Shown piece after piece: positions 6,107 to 52,217 of a stretch of DNA of 64,000 nucleotides; position 1 is the stretch's first letter; every line of letters starts with the position of its first letter. The notes under the pieces are model-generated. The model saw nothing but the letters and a program-made list of their open reading frames with translations, ran no database searches and had not been told where the DNA came from. The DNA lies in NCBI GenBank assembly GCA_022449545.1, contig JAKUPN010000009.1, positions 6,764 to 70,763 of the forward strand. Direction: 5' to 3'. Source of the stretch: Alphaproteobacteria bacterium (GTDB taxonomy: Bacteria > Pseudomonadota > Alphaproteobacteria > UBA6615). Both the position numbers and the translations under genes were made by a program.

Positions 6107-8440
6107 ATGACTAAATATGGAGTAGGACAACCTGTTCTTAGAACTGAGGATCCACGTTTACTTAAAGGGGTCGGCAAGTTTAACGATGATTATTCAATCG
6201 ATGACATGTCATACGGATATGTTCTTAGATCCCCGTATCCCCATGCAGAAATAATCTCTATCGATACCTCGAAAGCTAAGAATAGCCCTGGAGTTCTCGA
6301 TGTTTTTATTGGGGAAGACCTACATGAAGACGAAATAGGTGGATTCCCAGGACCCCCTCCGTTTTTTGCCGATCTTACAAAACCTGATGGCTCGCCACTT
6401 AGTTATCCGCCCCAATACGCATTAACATCCGATCGTGTTCGTTACGTTGGAGATCCAGTAGCGTTTATTGTTGCAGACACTTTAGAGAATGCGAAGGATG
6501 CAGCTGAAACTATTGAAATTGACTACAACGAATTACCCTCTGTGGTGGATACTTCTGAAGCAATGGATGAAGGGGCAGCTCAATTGTGGGAAGAGGTCCC
6601 AAATAACTTCTTATTTCAAGCACAAGTAGGCGATAAAGAAAAAACTGAAAAAGCATTCAATGAAGCCACCCACGTGGTTCATGTAGGTTTGACAAATAAT
6701 AGAATAGTACAAAACTCTATGGAAGTTAGAGGTGCGGTTGGTAGTTATGATCCCAAAAAAGAAAAATACACCTTGTACACGTCAAATCAAAACCGCCATA
6801 TGCTTCGTGACTGGATAGCAAATAGTTTTCTAAAATGCGACCCTCAAATGCTACAGGTTCTAGTGGATGACGTTGGTGGCGGGTTCGGCATGAAGACTCA
6901 CGCCTATCATGAGCAGGTTCTTGTTCTATACGCAGCTAAAAAACTTGGAACAAACATTAAATGGATAAGTGATCGAACCGAGGCATTTCTGAGTGATCTG
7001 CACGGACGAGATCATTTATCAGAATGTTATTTAGCCTTAGATGAGAATGGAAAATTTTTAGGAGTTAAAGTTGAAACAATTGCTGCTATTGGAGCTTATT
7101 CATGCTCAGCAGGTGTTGCGATACCTACCCAGGTAGGCCCAAAAATACTAACCAATGTTTACGATATCCCTACAGCTGATGTGAGCGTCAAATGTGTCAT
7201 GACTAACACAGCTCCCGTAGGCCCTTATAGAGGCGCTGGGCGCCCTGAGGCGATTTATGTAATGGAAAGACTGGTTGACGTTGCAGCAATAGAATTAGGT
7301 ATAGACCCTGTTGAATTGAGAAGAAGGAACTTAATAAAACCAGAACAACTACCTTATACAAATGCCATGGGAACAACTTATGATAGCGGAGAGTTTGAAG
7401 AAAACATGAACGCAACCATGTCGCTTGGTGATTGGAATAACTATGAAGAACGACGTCAAAGCTCACTAGACAATGGACGCCTCAGAGGTATAGGAATTTG
7501 CCAATACATAGAAACTACAGCAGGTAACCCGACCGAAAGCGCTGAAGTGGAAATAAAAGATAATAAGGTAGTGGTAAAAGTTGGAACCCAGCCAATGGGG
7601 CAAGGACATGATACATCTTTTATGCAACTTGTCTCCGAGAAACTTGGTGTCGATTTTGAGGATGTGATTATTGATACTAGTGATAGTGATAACTTACCAA
7701 GTGGTGGGGGCAGCCACGGCTCGAGAACTAGCCAAATTGGCAGTATAGCGACCATTAATTCTTCGGATAAAATGATTGCTAAGGGCAAGCTCATAGCTGG
7801 AGAAATTCTAGAGACCGCCCCGGCAGATATAGAATATAATAATGGAGCATTTAGTATCGCAGGTACCGACAGAGAAATATCTCTCTTTGACGTTGGACGT
7901 GAAGCTATTTCTTCTGTATCTCTGCCTGAAGAACTAAAGGGACCCCTTTCCGGTTCTGACACTCACACTATTGAAAACTGGAACTATCCGAATGGATGTC
8001 ACCTCTGCGAACTTGAAATCGATAAAGACACAGGTGAAATAGAGATCCTTAACTATTGCGCTGTGGACGATTTTGGAAGAGTAATAAACCCTCTACTGGT
8101 CGCTGGACAAGTTCACGGAGGGGTAGCACAGGGGCTAGGACAAGCCATACTAGAAAATACAGTGTATGACAAAAATTCAGGTCAATTAATAACAAGTTCT
8201 TTTATGGATTATACAATGCCACGAGCTGATGATTTACCTTTAATGAATATAGACACCAACGAAGTACTGTGCAAAACAAACATACTGGGAGTTAAGGGGT
8301 CTGGGGAAGCAGGAGCTTTGGTCGCTCCGCCTGTCATTATTTCAGCGATTGTTGATGCTCTGAAAGACTACGGCATAACGCATATAGACATGCCTGCCAC
8401 ATCAGAAAAGTTGTGGGAAATAATGCACAAACGTAGTTGA
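6107..8440 (+). CDS. Xanthine dehydrogenase-family molybdopterin-binding large subunit (CoxL form II-like)
   Basis: RTEDPRLL, VGGGFGMK, PYRGAGRPE, GQGHDT, GQVHGGVAQGLG, KGSGEAG. Confidence 0.93.
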   Translation: MTKYGVGQPVLRTEDPRLLKGVGKFNDDYSIDDMSYGYVLRSPYPHAEIISIDTSKAKNSPGVLDVFIGEDLHEDEIGGFPGPPPFFADLTKPDGSPLSYPPQYALTSDRVRYVGDPVAFIVADTLENAKDAAETIEIDYNELPSVVDTSEAMDEGAAQLWEEVPNNFLFQAQVGDKEKTEKAFNEATHVVHVGLTNNRIVQNSMEVRGAVGSYDPKKEKYTLYTSNQNRHMLRDWIANSFLKCDPQMLQVLVDDVGGGFGMKTHAYHEQVLVLYAAKKLGTNIKWISDRTEAFLSDLHGRDHLSECYLALDENGKFLGVKVETIAAIGAYSCSAGVAIPTQVGPKILTNVYDIPTADVSVKCVMTNTAPVGPYRGAGRPEAIYVMERLVDVAAIELGIDPVELRRRNLIKPEQLPYTNAMGTTYDSGEFEENMNATMSLGDWNNYEERRQSSLDNGRLRGIGICQYIETTAGNPTESAEVEIKDNKVVVKVGTQPMGQGHDTSFMQLVSEKLGVDFEDVIIDTSDSDNLPSGGGSHGSRTSQIGSIATINSSDKMIAKGKLIAGEILETAPADIEYNNGAFSIAGTDREISLFDVGREAISSVSLPEELKGPLSGSDTHTIENWNYPNGCHLCELEIDKDTGEIEILNYCAVDDFGRVINPLLVAGQVHGGVAQGLGQAILENTVYDKNSGQLITSSFMDYTMPRADDLPLMNIDTNEVLCKTNILGVKGSGEAGALVAPPVIISAIVDALKDYGITHIDMPATSEKLWEIMHKRS

Positions 8441-40969: not shown

Positions 40970-41728
40970 ATGGATATATCATCAATTAAGAATCAAATTG
41001 CAGTCATACCTGGAGGAGCTGCGGGAATCGGACTTGCTTGTGCACAAAGATACTCTGCAGAAGGTGCAAAAGTAGCCATTATTGATCGCGATCAAAAAAA
41101 TGGAATGGCAGCTTTAGCTACATTGGAAGAAAAAGGTGGAGAAGCTATGTTTACTCCAGCCGAATGCACATCAGAATCGGAAATGGACTCAGCTATAGCA
41201 GAAGTGACTAAGAAGTGGGGTAAAGTTGACATACTCGCGAATTGTGCCGGGGGATTTCATTCGGCCCCCCCAATTGAAGAAGTCGATGCTATAAAATGGA
41301 GCCACGGAATAGAATGGAATCTTTCTGGCGTATATATACCAATAAGATCAGTTGTCCCTATTATGAAATCAAATAAATATGGTCGGATCGTCAGCATAGG
41401 TTCAGCGGCAGGAAGAACGGCAGCTCTTATTGCATCCATAGACTACTCAGCAGCTAAAGCTGCTGTAGGAGGCCTTTCAAGAAGATTAGCTATAGAGTTA
41501 GCCCCCCATGGAATAACAGTAAATACTGTTGCACCCGGAACAGTGATGACCCCACGTATAGCTGTTTTACACTCGTCTCGTATGAAACAACTAGAAAAAG
41601 CAATGCCCGTAGGAAGATTAGGCGAACCAGAAGAGATAGCGCATGCAGTTTGGTATCTTTCAACTCCTGGTGCAGCATTCACAACTGGCGCAATCCTTGA
41701 TGTGAATGGAGGATCCTGGACTGGCTGA
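40970..41728 (+). CDS. Short-chain dehydrogenase/reductase (FabG-like); likely start ATG 40970
   Basis: GGAAGIG, NCAG, YSAAK, VAPG, DVNGG; SD GAGGGGGGAG upstream. Confidence 0.92.
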   Translation: MDISSIKNQIAVIPGGAAGIGLACAQRYSAEGAKVAIIDRDQKNGMAALATLEEKGGEAMFTPAECTSESEMDSAIAEVTKKWGKVDILANCAGGFHSAPPIEEVDAIKWSHGIEWNLSGVYIPIRSVVPIMKSNKYGRIVSIGSAAGRTAALIASIDYSAAKAAVGGLSRRLAIELAPHGITVNTVAPGTVMTPRIAVLHSSRMKQLEKAMPVGRLGEPEEIAHAVWYLSTPGAAFTTGAILDVNGGSWTG

Positions 41729-47273: not shown

Positions 47274-47352
47274 TTTTAGGAGTTACTTTAACCTATGTTT
47301 TAAAGCAAACTATTAGTGTCTCGATTTTATTCTTAATTAAAGGAAATATTAT

Positions 47353-48045
47353 ATGACTAAATATCACCTTGTTAGCTCGTTCACCTGACCTTGGGTGCAG
47401 CGCGCCGTGATCATAATGCGTGCGAAGAAAGTTCAATTTGACGTGACGTATATTAACTTACTGGATAAACCCAAATGGTTTTTAGACATTTCACCCCATG
47501 GTAAAGTGCCTCTGCTAATGGTGGAGAATAGAGTTCTATTTGAATCGAACGCGATTGCTGAATACCTAGATGAAGTAGTTCCTCCACAATTACATCCAGT
47601 TGATCCCATTAAAAAAGCACATAACAGAGCCTGGACAGATTTCGTACCCGAATTTGCTAAAGTCCTTGGAGCCATAGGATATTCAAAAAGCCTAGATGAG
47701 ATGAATGAAGCCCTATTAAATGCCCCTAAAGTTCTCGCGAAAATTGAGGAAGCACTGATAAACCAGGATGAGGACGGTCCATTTTTTAATGGAAAAAAAC
47801 TCTGTTTGGTAGACGCAGCTTATGCTCCTTTCCTACAACGATATAGGCTTATCGATAAAATGCTCAATAATAACGTCTTAAAGAATTTCCCACATATTAA
47901 CTCTTGGACCGATAATCTGCTTTCTGATGAAAGGGTTATTTTAGCTGTACCAGATAATTTTGAGGAAGAATTCCTTGCCTCTCTCATACGCAGAAAAACG
48001 TATGCCTCTTCATTTATCAAAGATTCGAACTTAGCGGCAGAATAA
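47353..48045 (+). CDS. Glutathione S-transferase (omega-like Cys-GST) with probable selenocysteine at residue 12, 230 aa
   Basis: SD AAGGA, then ATG 47353: MTKYHLVSSFT-TGA-PWVQRAVI... in frame with the track ORF (KPKWFLDISPHGKVP, LFESNAIAEYLDE). The TGA sits at the Cys position of the CP(Y/W)VQR motif. Confidence 0.85.
47389..47424 (+). promoter_or_regulatory. Putative bacterial SECIS hairpin
   Basis: GC-rich stem just 3' of the TGA: GCGCGC(47400-05)/GCGTGC(47418-23), or the alternative CGCGC/GTGCG plus CGT/ATG with a G-initiated apical loop GATCATA about 20 nt after the TGA; folded by eye. Confidence 0.55.
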
Positions 48046-48063
48046 CCATTCCTGAGTTAGAGA

Positions 48064-48765
48064 ATGATTTCTTACAAGATACATAATCCACATGGATATA
48101 GAGCTGAAGACCCCCGTTTTGGTCTTTCGGGCGAAGAGTTAAAAAATTATTATTTATCACAGCCAACGCAATTTTACGTTAAGTGCATTTACAAGCAAGA
48201 ATCAAAAAATTCATTAACTCAGGCATCATCCGCCCATGAGCTAAATATTAAATTATTACTTAATGACATCCAATTCGTGGGCCCTCTTTTGTCCGAAGAC
48301 AATGATACAGAAATAGGCATGATGTATATAATGAATATGCCGAATCGTAATTCTGTCGAGGCGTTTCTTAAAAAAGATGAATGTTATAAACTAGGACTAA
48401 TAGAAAAAATAGAAATTTATAGATTTATTAACAGTAAAAAACACCGATTTGGAGATCGTTCACCTGATACCCAAATGCAATTGTTTGTCTGTGAATGTCT
48501 AGATAAAAAGAATATAAGTGACCTTCGCTCTAAAACCTCAGAGGCACACCATAATTACCAGGGGCAGATTATAAATAACTATTTCGCACACGGCCCTTTA
48601 AGAAGTGATGATGGAGTTAATTTGATAGGCAGTTTATTTATTATAGAGGTAGAAAATATGAAAGCGGCCAAAAAGTTGGTGGCCTCTGAACCCTTTACAA
48701 AAGCGGGCGTTTTTAAAACCACCACAATAACAGGCTGGCGTTACAGTCACTTTCTAAAATCATAA
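48064..48765 (+). CDS. Tandem two-domain YciI family protein
   Basis: Two repeats of AH...GPL.S.D....IG...I...(D/E)..Y/F.K.G: GPLLSEDNDTEIGMMYI and GPLRSDDGVNLIGSLFI. Confidence 0.8.
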   Translation: MISYKIHNPHGYRAEDPRFGLSGEELKNYYLSQPTQFYVKCIYKQESKNSLTQASSAHELNIKLLLNDIQFVGPLLSEDNDTEIGMMYIMNMPNRNSVEAFLKKDECYKLGLIEKIEIYRFINSKKHRFGDRSPDTQMQLFVCECLDKKNISDLRSKTSEAHHNYQGQIINNYFAHGPLRSDDGVNLIGSLFIIEVENMKAAKKLVASEPFTKAGVFKTTTITGWRYSHFLKS

Positions 48766-49731: not shown

Positions 49732-52071
49732 TTAGTCAGAACTGTTTTGTATCGTTTGCCAAACACGATAGGGAGTAGCAGGCATGTCAATGTTAGAAAC
49801 TCCAAATTCAGAAAGCGCATCAATGACAGCGTTCATTACTGCCGGTAATGCTCCACTGCAACCTGCTTCACCAGCACCCTTGGCTCCTAGCACGTTAGAT
49901 GTCGCTGGGTCAGGATGATCATCAAATGTAATGTCTGGTATTTCTACTGCTCGTGGTAATTGGTAATCCATATAAGAACCTGTTAGCAACTGGCCATCAT
50001 CGGAATAAACGACTTCTTCCATAAGGGCCTGGCCGATACCTTGGACAATCCCTCCATGTACCTGACCCTCTGCCAAGAGTGGGTTCACAATAGTACCAAA
50101 ATCATCCACCACACTGTATCTATCTACACGAGTAAACCCTGTTTCTGGATCAACTTCTACCTCGCAAATGTGTATTCCATTAGGAAATGACGAAGGTGCA
50201 GTCTCATGCACCAATTCTGTATCTAGGCTATCAGGAAACTGGTGGTCACCGGCGTTATCTTTTGCCTGTTTGGCAACTTCAAATATTCCCACAGACTTAT
50301 CTGTTCCAGCAACATGAAAACTTCCTTCATTATACTCAATATCTTCAACACTTGCTTCCAAGATATAGCTAGCAATCTGGCACCCTTTTTCTATAACTTT
50401 TTCGGCTGTTTCATAGATAGCCCCTGATTCAGCAATAACTGATCGTGATCCACCAGTACCTCCTCCAATTATTAATTGATCACTATCTCCCTGCAGAAGA
50501 TCAATTTTATCAAATGGTACACCTAAACGCGCTGAAAGAATTTGTGCAAAAGTAGAACGATGACCTTGTCCGTAATCTAGTGTCCCGCTAACAATTGTAA
50601 TACGGCCATCATCGCCAAATCTTAGGCCTCCCATTTCTTTTCCCGAAGGAGCCGAAACTTCGACATAAGCACAAACACCGAACCCTCGCTTCATTCCTCG
50701 CTCCTGAGACTCAGATCGGCGTTTATTAAAGCCAAGTAAATCAGAAGCATCCAATGCTTTATCAAACATTGGATCAAAATCCCCGCTATCATAGATTTGA
50801 CCACTGGCTGCAGTGAATGGCATTGCCTCTTTAGAAACTAGATTTCTCCGTCGTAAATCAATCGGGTCTATTCCCATCTCCCGTGACGCGGTATCGACCA
50901 ATCTTTCCATAATAAAATTGCCCTCCGGTCGACCGGCACCACGATAGGCTCCTACATAATTGGTATTAGTGAAAACACACTGCATATTTACGTCAATGGC
51001 AGGAGTTCTATACATACATGTAAGATTTTTGCCGACATTGACTGTTTGTGCGTGTGGGCCAGTTCCGGTTAGGTACCCTCCCATGTTAGCTAGTCCATGC
51101 ACCCGAGCGGCTAAAAATATTCCATTCTCATCTAGCGCTAGTTCAGCAAAATACTCACTGCCACGGCCCATGTGATCAGAAACCATACTTTCAGTTCGAT
51201 CTGCAGTCCACTTAACCGGACACGAGAGATTTTTAGAAGCAAGCATAACAACTGGATACTCATTGTAAGGAAGTGATTTCATACCAAAGGAACCACCTAC
51301 ATCATTTGTAATAACTCGGATATTTTCAGGTTCTTCTTTGATAATACCAGCAAGAAGGTTTCGCATCCCAAAAACACCTTGGCAACCGGTATAAACAGTA
51401 TACCTTTGTGTTTTAAGATCGTAATTTCCAATGAACGACCTTGGCTCCATTGCCGACACAAAAACCTGATTGTTTTTAAGCTTTATACTAGTAACGTGAC
51501 TTGCATTTTCAAAAGCGTTACTGGTTGCTTCAGCGTCTCCCATCTGAAAATCAATGCATACATTTCCAGGTGCTTCTTGATGCAATTGTAACGCCTCATC
51601 AGAAGTAGAGCTAGAAACATCAACACTTGCTGACAATTCTTCAATATCAATAACAACTAGCTCAGCCGCATCACGGGCTTCAGAGATTGTTTTGCCTATT
51701 ACTGCAACTATCGGTTCTCCGACATTTCTAACTCGATCTGTTGCCAATATTGGTCGTGGGGGTTTAATGAGTGCTGAACCGTCGCGGCTTTTCAATGGCA
51801 AATTATTTGGTAATGTACCATAACCTGCTTCATTAATATCATTGCACGTGTACACAGCTAATATACCAGGAGAAGATTTGGCTGCGTCTGTGTCTATGGA
51901 GACAATATTTCCGTGGGCAACATGTGATCGTACAAAAATAATATACGCTTGATCCTGTAGATTCATGTCATCTGTGTATTGGCCTCTCCCACGAAGAAGA
52001 CGAGGGTCTTCATTCCGGGTTACAGGCTGACTGACTGCATATGGTCCTGAGCCAAATACGGGTACATCCAC
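49732..52071 (-). CDS. Xanthine dehydrogenase-family molybdopterin-binding large subunit (CoxL form II-like); likely start GTG 52071
   Basis: RNEDPRLL, VGGSFGMK, AYRGAGRPE, GQGHRS, GQVHGG, KGAGEAG; SD AAGGA before the GTG. Confidence 0.92.
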   Translation of the reverse strand: MDVPVFGSGPYAVSQPVTRNEDPRLLRGRGQYTDDMNLQDQAYIIFVRSHVAHGNIVSIDTDAAKSSPGILAVYTCNDINEAGYGTLPNNLPLKSRDGSALIKPPRPILATDRVRNVGEPIVAVIGKTISEARDAAELVVIDIEELSASVDVSSSTSDEALQLHQEAPGNVCIDFQMGDAEATSNAFENASHVTSIKLKNNQVFVSAMEPRSFIGNYDLKTQRYTVYTGCQGVFGMRNLLAGIIKEEPENIRVITNDVGGSFGMKSLPYNEYPVVMLASKNLSCPVKWTADRTESMVSDHMGRGSEYFAELALDENGIFLAARVHGLANMGGYLTGTGPHAQTVNVGKNLTCMYRTPAIDVNMQCVFTNTNYVGAYRGAGRPEGNFIMERLVDTASREMGIDPIDLRRRNLVSKEAMPFTAASGQIYDSGDFDPMFDKALDASDLLGFNKRRSESQERGMKRGFGVCAYVEVSAPSGKEMGGLRFGDDGRITIVSGTLDYGQGHRSTFAQILSARLGVPFDKIDLLQGDSDQLIIGGGTGGSRSVIAESGAIYETAEKVIEKGCQIASYILEASVEDIEYNEGSFHVAGTDKSVGIFEVAKQAKDNAGDHQFPDSLDTELVHETAPSSFPNGIHICEVEVDPETGFTRVDRYSVVDDFGTIVNPLLAEGQVHGGIVQGIGQALMEEVVYSDDGQLLTGSYMDYQLPRAVEIPDITFDDHPDPATSNVLGAKGAGEAGCSGALPAVMNAVIDALSEFGVSNIDMPATPYRVWQTIQNSSD

Positions 52072-52217
52072 GGCTTTTTCCTTTTTTAAAGTTGATAAGG
52101 ATTGCAACTGTCTAAGATAATCATATCTTCGCCAAAAACTCGACAAATATAGACTTATTTATCGTATCAGTCGTGACTTGGTAATATTATTAAATTATAG
52201 AATTCAAATGTCTACAG

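What the first reader, a model, noticed from the sequence alone, without database searches (positions are those of the whole stretch)
47353..48045. Hidden selenoprotein: GST with UGA at the catalytic cysteine plus a SECIS-like hairpin
Seen: SD (AAGGA) and ATG at 47353 give MTKYHLVSSFT-TGA-PWVQRAVI, in frame with the 216-aa track ORF, which starts at a GTG and lacks the first beta strand and active site. A conspicuously GC-rich stem-loop follows the TGA in an otherwise AT-rich gene. Known: omega-like Cys-GSTs carry CP(Y/W)VQR at this position, and bacterial Sec insertion uses a hairpin just 3' of the UGA. Sec-GSTs have, to my recollection, been predicted in marine metagenome selenoproteome surveys, so the family is not wholly new, but it is rare, poorly characterised and usually mis-annotated. 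Inference: a U-P-W-V-Q-R selenoenzyme acting as a thiol-transferase or deglutathionylase. TGA is a normal stop elsewhere in the window (8438-8440, 41726-41728), so this is not a code change.
Basis: partly seen in the sequence, partly recalled or inferred. Interest (0 to 1): 0.85.

Follow-up and report, generated by a model that had tools for sequence, protein, structure and literature searches.

The report
Selenocysteine glutathione transferase gene, known family
The apparent stop codon near the start of this glutathione-transferase gene is almost certainly read as selenocysteine at the enzyme's catalytic site, but this kind of selenoprotein has been listed from ocean metagenomes since 2005, so the main news is that databases cut the gene short.

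Summary
ATG 47353 and TGA 47386-47388 lie in frame with the 216-aa GTG ORF. Read through, the gene gives a complete 230-aa GST with U12 in a U-P-W-V-Q-R motif.

The TGA sits at the same codon in all 28 orthologs from related genomes and in 52 of the 80 best loci from a species-wide genome collection. The other 28 loci have TGC or TGT.

The genome carries selA, selB, a selD fusion and tRNA-Sec.

A 6-bp GC stem starts 11 nt after the UGA. Its energy is not exceptional. It is, however, frozen at synonymous sites in TGA forms only.

Independent metagenome assemblies carry the same TGA.

GST is listed as a selenoprotein family in Zhang et al. 2005, in Zhang and Gladyshev 2008, and in reviews of 2022 and 2026. 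This scan had already found it in other genomes.

Enzyme function is inferred, not shown. Interest is low to moderate.

The parts
47340..47344 (+). Shine-Dalgarno-like AAGGA, 8 nt before the ATG
   Evidence: Read directly. Not tested further.
47353..48045 (+). Full coding sequence of the Sec-GST: 230 codons plus a TAA stop, with Sec at codon 12
   Evidence: Translated. Pfam gives GST_N_2 at 3.7e-17 (profile positions 1-69 of 70 start at residue 11) plus GST_C families. The AF2 model has pLDDT 93.1, with strand beta-1 at residues 4-9, i.e. upstream of the TGA.
47386..47388 (+). UGA codon read as selenocysteine (U12), at the position of the catalytic Cys of Cys-type GSTs
   Evidence: The same codon is TGA in all 29 loci examined and in 52 of 80 loci. 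It is TGC or TGT in the other 28. It aligns to the CPF Cys of DHAR1 and TDR1.
47400..47423 (+). Putative bacterial SECIS hairpin. The stem is 47400-47405 paired with 47418-47423. The loop 47406-47417 begins C-G-U-G-A-U. The hairpin starts 11 nt after the UGA.
   Evidence: Stem pairs form in 98.2% of cells in 64 distinct TGA sequences, against 82.1% in 27 Cys sequences. Synonymous sites are frozen in TGA forms only. The exact stem is the MFE fold in 60 of 65 TGA forms against 7 of 27 Cys forms, and the loop motif occurs in 62 of 65 against 2 of 27.
48064..48765 (+). Downstream YCII-domain gene, 18 nt after the GST stop. It is a conserved neighbour within the window's taxonomic family.
   Evidence: Pfam YCII at 7.1e-17. 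tblastn finds it next to the GST in 30 of 108 loci, including all 23 loci L021-L043.

Best explanation
This is one gene, 47353-48045, for a 230-residue glutathione-transferase-fold enzyme whose catalytic residue is selenocysteine.

During translation, SelB carrying Sec-tRNA(Sec) is recruited by a small hairpin that starts 11 nt after the UGA (47400-47423). The UGA at 47386 is then read as Sec instead of stop. The genome supplies all the machinery: selA, selB, a selD fusion and tRNA-Sec with anticodon UCA.

The protein is a monothiol, Cys-type GST, similar to the omega, DHAR and lambda classes. Sec12 sits at the N-cap of helix alpha-1 in a U-P-W-V-Q-R motif.

By analogy with those enzymes, the selenolate would attack a glutathionylated or disulfide substrate, or dehydroascorbate. 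That would form an enzyme Se-S-glutathione intermediate, which a second GSH resolves to GSSG.

What is shown here: the codon, its conservation, the Sec/Cys pairing, the machinery, the fold, and the Sec-specific constraint on the RNA. What is inferred: actual Se insertion, the SelB contact, and the chemistry and substrate.
For: 1. Position-exact conservation. All 29 loci (own copy plus 28 relatives, 54-89% identical) have TGA at the same codon. The N-terminal M..KYHL[IV]SSFT and the following PWVQRAVI are conserved, and nothing is conserved upstream of the ATG.

2. Sec/Cys pairing. Of the 80 best loci in genome contigs, 52 have TGA, 17 TGC and 11 TGT. Of the 120 listed database homologs, 41 are full-length with Cys at that residue and 79 begin downstream of it.

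3. Machinery. selA scores 598 bits, selB 450, selD 292 and tRNA-Sec 72.5, all above curated cut-offs and all on contig C12. ARAGORN calls tRNA-SeC with anticodon tca.

4. Co-occurrence. 28 of 30 genomes with the TGA form have selB over the cut-off. The two exceptions are 85% and 77% complete. Only 4 of the other 31 genomes have selB.

5. RNA constraint specific to TGA forms. Codon counts in 65 distinct TGA sequences against 27 Cys sequences are:
- R17 CGC: 61/65 against 14/27
- A18 GCC: 62/65 against 8/27
- V19 GTG: 62/65 against 7/27
The nearby fourfold sites P13 and V15 vary freely. In this 40% GC genome CGC, GCC and GTG make up only 11%, 17% and 15% of their codon families.

6. Shared motif. 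The 9-mer GCGCGCCGT occurs 4 times in the 2.25-Mb genome. Two of those occurrences lie exactly 11 nt after an in-frame TGA: this gene and the PrdB-like selenoprotein gene.

7. Fold. The AF2 model (pLDDT 93.1) places residues 4-9, upstream of the TGA, as strand beta-1 and U12 just before helix 13-24. Foldseek matches tau, omega and DHAR GSTs at TM 0.72-0.81. phmmer against PDB sequences gives TDR1, DHAR1 and GSTO1, with their CPF Cys aligned to U12.

8. Not an error. Contigs from three DNA runs of different studies cover 47386-47388 with no difference listed.
Against: There is no direct evidence of selenium insertion or of translation past the UGA.

The hairpin's stability is unremarkable: z-scores of 0.40 and 0.36, and 12.85% of synonymous recodings fold as well.

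The stem is almost invariant, so covariation says little. One pair shows a change on both sides, and 21 of 500 shuffles reach the observed score. Part of the stem comes for free from the protein sequence, because two R-A dipeptides encoded as CGC-GCN are self-complementary. Cys forms still pair in 82.1% of cells.

The unpaired loop as drawn is 12 nt, larger than the 'small apical loop' described for bacterial SECIS elements in PMC1088965.

Rfam gave no match in the window.

The only RNA run holds one 151-nt contig at the 3' end of the gene, 47909-48059, which does not show that the gene is transcribed.
Confidence: 0.93

Rival explanations
1. Translation stops at the UGA. The functional product is the N-terminally truncated GST that gene callers annotate, starting at GTG 47395 or at the ATG of M22. 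The 11 upstream codons are a leader peptide or non-coding.
For: Public gene calls take this form. 79 of the 120 listed homologs are 202-217 aa and begin after the position. NCBI names such 209-212 aa proteins 'glutathione S-transferase family protein'.
Against: The 11 upstream residues are conserved as protein and form strand beta-1 of the thioredoxin fold. Cys homologs have the same N-terminus uninterrupted. A truncated product would lack both beta-1 and the catalytic residue. GST_N_2 profile position 1 aligns at residue 11.
Confidence: 0.03
2. A nonsense mutation (pseudogene) or an assembly or sequencing error at a Cys codon.
For: A single base separates TGA from TGT or TGC. The window comes from a metagenome-type assembly of 47 contigs.
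Against: The TGA is at the same codon in 81 loci, giving 65 distinct sequences, across many genera. No other stop or frameshift occurs in the gene. Contigs from three different studies carry the TGA.
Confidence: 0.01
3. The UGA is decoded as a standard amino acid (Trp, Gly or Cys) through a changed genetic code or a suppressor tRNA, not as Sec.
For: Read-through alone cannot tell Sec from other residues. Cys is tolerated at this site in homologs.
Against: TGA ends 9 of the 53 long ORFs in the window. No suppressor is needed, since a full Sec system is present. The TGA form tracks selB across genomes. The downstream RNA is constrained only in TGA forms.
Confidence: 0.02

Closest known systems
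GST / GST-like prokaryotic selenoprotein family. Sources seen as passages: Zhang, Fomenko and Gladyshev 2005, PMC1088965 (4 Sargasso sequences, COG0625); Zhang and Gladyshev 2008, PMC2398784 (12 Sec sequences and 1,036 Cys homologs in GOS); reviews PMC9312934 and PMC13188914 (PF13409, one Sec).
   Same: A GST-domain protein (COG0625 / PF13409) from marine bacteria with one in-frame UGA, Cys-containing homologs and a hairpin downstream of the UGA. The reviews state that the function is uncharacterised.
   Different: I could not see the published sequences, because the figures are not held and the supplements are closed. The representative accessions named in the reviews did not turn up among the clusters I looked up. 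Identity of subfamily (the U-P-W-V-Q-R motif) is therefore likely but untested. This copy is a new, unannotated member in a 40% GC alphaproteobacterial genome.
Cys-type GSTs with solved structures: omega class (human GSTO1, 1eem), plant DHAR (5el8), lambda (4pqh) and Leishmania TDR1 (4ags).
   Same: They share the two-domain GST fold (TM 0.72-0.81). They are the best sequence matches in the PDB (E 2.7e-24 to 3e-17). The catalytic Cys of the C-P-F motif aligns with U12, and the following Q/E-R is conserved. The V-P and E-S positions are invariant in the family alignments. Their role in GSH binding is recalled, not tested.
   Different: Identity is only about 20-26%. The catalytic residue is Sec instead of Cys, and the motif has P-W-V instead of P-F-A/S. 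There is no N-terminal extension: query residue 8 aligns with GSTO1 residue 28, and beta-1 starts at residue 4. It works like these enzymes but is not a member of the omega class proper.
E. coli fdhF-type bacterial SECIS (recalled from the literature of Bock and colleagues, as summarised in PMC1088965).
   Same: The hairpin lies inside the coding region and starts 11 nt after the UGA, with G-U near the 5' side of the loop. The 11-nt spacing and the GU determinant of fdhF are recalled, not taken from a call.
   Different: The sequence is different, the unpaired loop is larger (7-12 nt depending on inner pairs), and no bulged U is evident. SelB binding was not tested.

Membership tests
Bacterial selenoprotein gene (UGA read as Sec) | In-frame UGA aligned with Cys in homologs, with protein conservation on both sides | tested here: met
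   TGA in 81 loci and TGC/TGT in 28 at the same codon. The flanks are conserved.
Bacterial selenoprotein gene (UGA read as Sec) | SECIS stem-loop immediately 3' of the UGA with a guanosine in the apical loop | tested here: met
   A 6-bp stem starts 11 nt after the UGA, with loop C-G-U-G-A-U. It is conserved at synonymous sites in TGA forms only. Caveat: the energy alone is not significant and there is almost no covariation.
Bacterial selenoprotein gene (UGA read as Sec) | selA, selB, selC and selD present in the same genome | tested here: met
   All four score above curated cut-offs on contig C12. The tRNA-SeC anticodon is tca.
Bacterial selenoprotein gene (UGA read as Sec) | Selenium shown in the protein | not testable with these tools
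   Needs 75Se labelling or mass spectrometry.
GST-like selenoprotein family of Zhang et al. 2005/2008 | GST domain (COG0625 / PF13409) with a single Sec | tested here: met
   PF13409 at 3.7e-17, with one recoded codon. Family listing.
GST-like selenoprotein family of Zhang et al. 2005/2008 | Sequence orthology to the published members | not testable with these tools
   The published sequences are in figures and supplements that I could not see. The review accessions were not among the 10 clusters read.
Omega-class GST | Catalytic Cys at the N-terminus of helix alpha-1 in a C-P-[FWY] motif | tested here: met
   U12-P13-W14 lies directly before helix 13-24 and aligns to C-P-F of GSTO1, DHAR1 and TDR1. 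Sec stands in place of Cys.
Omega-class GST | N-terminal extension of about 20 residues before beta-1 (feature recalled) | tested here: not met
   Beta-1 starts at residue 4. Query residue 8 aligns with residue 28 of the 241-aa GSTO1 chain.
GST superfamily | Thioredoxin-like N-domain plus all-helical C-domain | tested here: met
   AF2 pLDDT 93.1 with beta-alpha-beta-alpha-beta-beta-alpha followed by helices. Foldseek gave at least 500 PDB GST matches at E <= 0.001.

The most novel reading that the evidence does not exclude
In this GST ortholog group selenocysteine, not cysteine, is the prevailing and possibly ancestral state, and the Cys forms are derived. The SECIS core UGA-N11-GCGCGCCGU is shared letter for letter with the unrelated PrdB-like selenoprotein of the same genome, and both encode R-A-V in the same register. 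This would mean that SelB of this alphaproteobacterial clade reads a sequence-specific core that constrains, or was recruited from, the protein sequence. The conserved GST-YCII gene pair might then mark a specific, still unknown glutathione-dependent pathway.
Probability: 0.2. Interest if true: 0.45.

Novelty: new member of a known kind. Interest (0 to 1): 0.27.

Why it matters
The practical value is annotation. The gene should be called from 47353 with Sec at codon 12.

Public databases hold many N-terminally truncated 'GST family proteins' that lack their catalytic residue. 79 of the 120 nearest database proteins begin after the site, and NCBI names such proteins as. NCBIfam has no model specific to this family.

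Scientifically, no natural Sec-GST has been characterised biochemically, according to the reviews seen and a search listing that named none. The Sec/Cys pair is abundant here, so it is a good system for asking what selenium buys a monothiol GST. The existence of the family is not news.

Tried and rejected
- **Folding energy as evidence for the hairpin.** Dinucleotide shuffles and synonymous recodings show the energy is ordinary, so I rely on comparative constraint instead.
- **Covariation.** The stem is nearly invariant, which makes the test uninformative.
- **Rfam and ARAGORN on the window.** No matches.
- **Transcription.** The single RNA run holds only a 151-nt contig at 47909-48059 with 3 differences. 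This is no proof of expression and says nothing about the UGA.
- **Link to the accessions named in the reviews.** They were not among the 10 clusters read.
- **Full-text search for the Cys-form motif.** 0 papers.
- **Search for biochemical work on natural Sec-GSTs.** 47 papers held at least 4 of the 5 terms. I saw the listing of 12, and none was on this topic.
- **Other selenoprotein genes in the window.** A crude scan gave 28 in-frame-TGA candidates. By eye, none besides 47386 looked like a gene.
- **Promoter and terminator scan.** Nothing above the shuffle expectation.
- **Gene tree.** The careful search did not finish in the time allowed. Only the quick tree was used, with a midpoint root for drawing only, so the direction of Sec/Cys change is tentative.
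- **Neighbouring genes as a clue to function.** The TauD-like neighbour is conserved in only 5 of 108 loci and the dehydrogenase neighbour in 15 of 108, so they give no usable clue.

Full report
**What is in the sequence**

One search shows AAGGA at 47340-47344, ATG at 47353 and TGA at 47386-47388. An open frame then runs to TAA at 48043-48045. Under table 11 the ORF list has only the 216-aa GTG-started piece, 47395-48045.

Read with TGA=U, the stretch 47353-48045 gives 230 residues with one recoded codon, U12, in the context T-U-P-W-V-Q-R. Pfam matches the read-through protein to these families:
- GST_N_2 (3.7e-17, profile 1-69 of 70 starting at residue 11)
- GST_N_3
- GST_N
- four GST_C families

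The N-terminal domain is therefore complete only if the 11 codons before the TGA are included.

TGA is an ordinary stop elsewhere in the window.

**Is the TGA real and conserved?**

A six-frame search of 60 related genomes plus the window's own found 28 full-length orthologs (54-89% identical). Each has exactly one TGA inside. Paralogs at 30-38% identity mostly have no stop.

In all 29 loci (the own copy included) the TGA is at the same codon. The preceding M..KYHL[IV]SSFT and the following PWVQRAVI are conserved, and conservation stops at the ATG.

An even sample of 401 genomes of the class gave 12 orthologs at E <= 1e-55. Ten carry the TGA and two (43-45% identical) do not.

A scan of one genome per species found 314 relatives. 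Of the 80 kept, 52 have TGA, 17 TGC and 11 TGT. One of the two search patterns spelled Cys, so these proportions are not unbiased.

Among the 120 nearest proteins in the large protein database, 41 are full-length with Cys at this residue. The other 79 are 202-217 aa and start after it. NCBI names such truncated calls 'glutathione S-transferase family protein'.

Contigs from three DNA runs of different studies cover the codon, and no difference is listed there. Error and pseudogene readings are excluded.

**Machinery**

The same genome (2.25 Mb, 96% complete) has all four components on contig C12 within about 8 kb:
- selA, 598 bits
- selB, 450 bits
- selD, 292 bits, inside a 762-aa fusion with a pyridine-nucleotide-disulfide oxidoreductase domain
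- tRNA-Sec, 72.5 bits

ARAGORN calls the tRNA as tRNA-SeC with anticodon tca.

Across the 61 genomes, 28 of the 30 that carry the TGA form have selB above the cut-off. The two exceptions are 85% and 77% complete. Only 4 of the other 31 have selB. Related genomes are not independent, so this is a pattern and not a statistical test.

**The hairpin**

The stem is 47400-47405 (GCGCGC) paired with 47418-47423 (GCGUGC). It starts 11 nt after the UGA, and the loop begins C-G-U-G-A-U.

Its energy is unremarkable:
- z = 0.40 and 0.36 against dinucleotide shuffles
- 12.85% of 2000 synonymous recodings fold as well

Part of the pairing is free, because R-A encoded as CGC-GCN is self-complementary and occurs twice. 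Cys forms still pair in 82.1% of cells.

The case rests on a contrast between forms. In 65 distinct TGA sequences the codons of R17, A18 and V19 are almost fixed, while in 27 Cys sequences they vary:

| Codon | TGA forms | Cys forms |
|---|---|---|
| R17 CGC | 61/65 | 14/27 |
| A18 GCC | 62/65 | 8/27 |
| V19 GTG | 62/65 | 7/27 |

In the same TGA sequences the fourfold sites of P13 and V15 use all four codons.

Other measures point the same way:
- The exact 6-bp stem is the MFE fold of the 24-nt segment in 60 of 65 TGA forms against 7 of 27 Cys forms.
- The loop motif occurs in 62 of 65 against 2 of 27.
- Stem cells pair at 98.2% in TGA forms.
- The three TGA sequences that depart from the motif change together, to G-G-U-C.
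- In this 40% GC genome the codons used are minor ones, with CGC at 11%, GCC at 17% and GTG at 15% of their families. GC3 is 0.78 in codons 16-24 against 0.34 elsewhere.

A quick gene tree puts the Cys forms inside the diversity of the TGA forms, with 3 changes at the least. The frozen sites are therefore not explained by recent common ancestry (quick tree, midpoint root only).

**A shared motif in the genome**

The 9-mer GCGCGCCGT occurs four times in the whole genome. Two occurrences lie exactly 11 nt after an in-frame TGA. One is this gene. The other is a PrdB-like selenoprotein gene (V-U-P-Q-C) beside the sel genes.

In relatives the pattern recurs at the orthologs of these two families and at a second PrdB-like paralog. 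Both families encode R-A-V in that register. Whether this reflects a SelB preference or coincidence is open.

**What the protein is**

The AF2 model (pLDDT 93.1, pTM 0.89) has beta-1 at residues 4-9 and U12 directly before helix 13-24, followed by the usual GST helical domain.

Foldseek finds tau, omega and DHAR GSTs at TM 0.72-0.81. By sequence the best solved relatives are the Cys-type enzymes TDR1, DHAR1 and GSTO1, whose C-P-F cysteine aligns with U12. The V-P and E-S positions are invariant in the family alignments.

It lacks the N-terminal extension of omega GSTs. It therefore works like an omega/DHAR-type monothiol GST but is not an omega-class member.

The likely chemistry is selenolate attack on a glutathionyl-substrate, a disulfide or dehydroascorbate, followed by an Se-SG intermediate that is resolved by GSH. 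This is inference from those families.

**Context**

- Upstream lie a TauD-family dioxygenase gene and two 3-hydroxyisobutyrate-dehydrogenase-like genes.
- Downstream, 18 nt after the stop, lies a YCII-domain gene.
- Only the YCII neighbour is widely kept: 30 of 108 loci, including all 23 loci L021-L043.

**Known or new**

GST is listed among the new selenoprotein families of the Sargasso Sea: 4 sequences, COG0625, Cys homologs widespread (PMC1088965; passages, section 8 and outline seen). The GOS survey lists 12 Sec sequences and 1,036 Cys homologs (PMC2398784, passage).

It appears as 'GST-like' in reviews of 2022 and 2026. The 2026 review says that nearly all such proteins are functionally uncharacterised (PMC9312934 and PMC13188914, passages).

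I could not see the published sequences, because the figures are not held and the supplements are closed. Subfamily identity is therefore likely but not shown. NCBIfam has no model specific to this family.

Earlier notes of this scan report the same kind of gene in several other genomes, and the sel cluster and PrdB-like gene in this genome. My own calls agree with them.

**Verdict**

This is a genuine, mis-annotated selenoprotein gene and a new member of a known family.

Noticed in passing
G000 contig C12, locus L130:2438-3691 (+), outside the window: A PrdB/GrdB-like gene is split by an in-frame TGA (V-U-P-Q-C motif). It lies beside the selD fusion, tRNA-Sec, selB and selA. Its UGA is followed, after 11 nt, by the same 9-mer as in the GST gene.
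   Followed up: partly
G000 contig C12, locus L130:1649-2341 (+): A Cys-type GST paralog (T-C-P-F-A-Q-R, 33% identical to the Sec-GST) sits next to the sel gene cluster. Paralog hits lie within about 10-30 kb of selB in several relatives too.
   Followed up: partly
G000 contig C12, locus L130:3719-6007 (-): selD is fused to an N-terminal pyridine-nucleotide-disulfide oxidoreductase domain, giving a 762-aa ORF.
   Followed up: no
window 48064-48765 (+): A 233-aa YCII-domain protein gene lies 18 nt downstream of the GST. The pair is conserved in all 23 loci L021-L043 of the window's taxonomic family, and the YCII protein shows a weak internal repeat in tblastn.
   Followed up: partly
window 47374-47412: In two metagenome runs, short contigs of other organisms align only to this 39-nt stretch around the UGA and the 5' half of the hairpin, with 2 differences. 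They then diverge into another species' Sec-GST flanks. This shows how strongly this nucleotide block is conserved between organisms in one sample.
   Followed up: no
window 49732-52146 (-) and L130:38-1609 (+): Molybdopterin-binding subunits of the xanthine dehydrogenase / aldehyde oxidase family lie near both the Sec-GST and the sel cluster. No link was tested.
   Followed up: no
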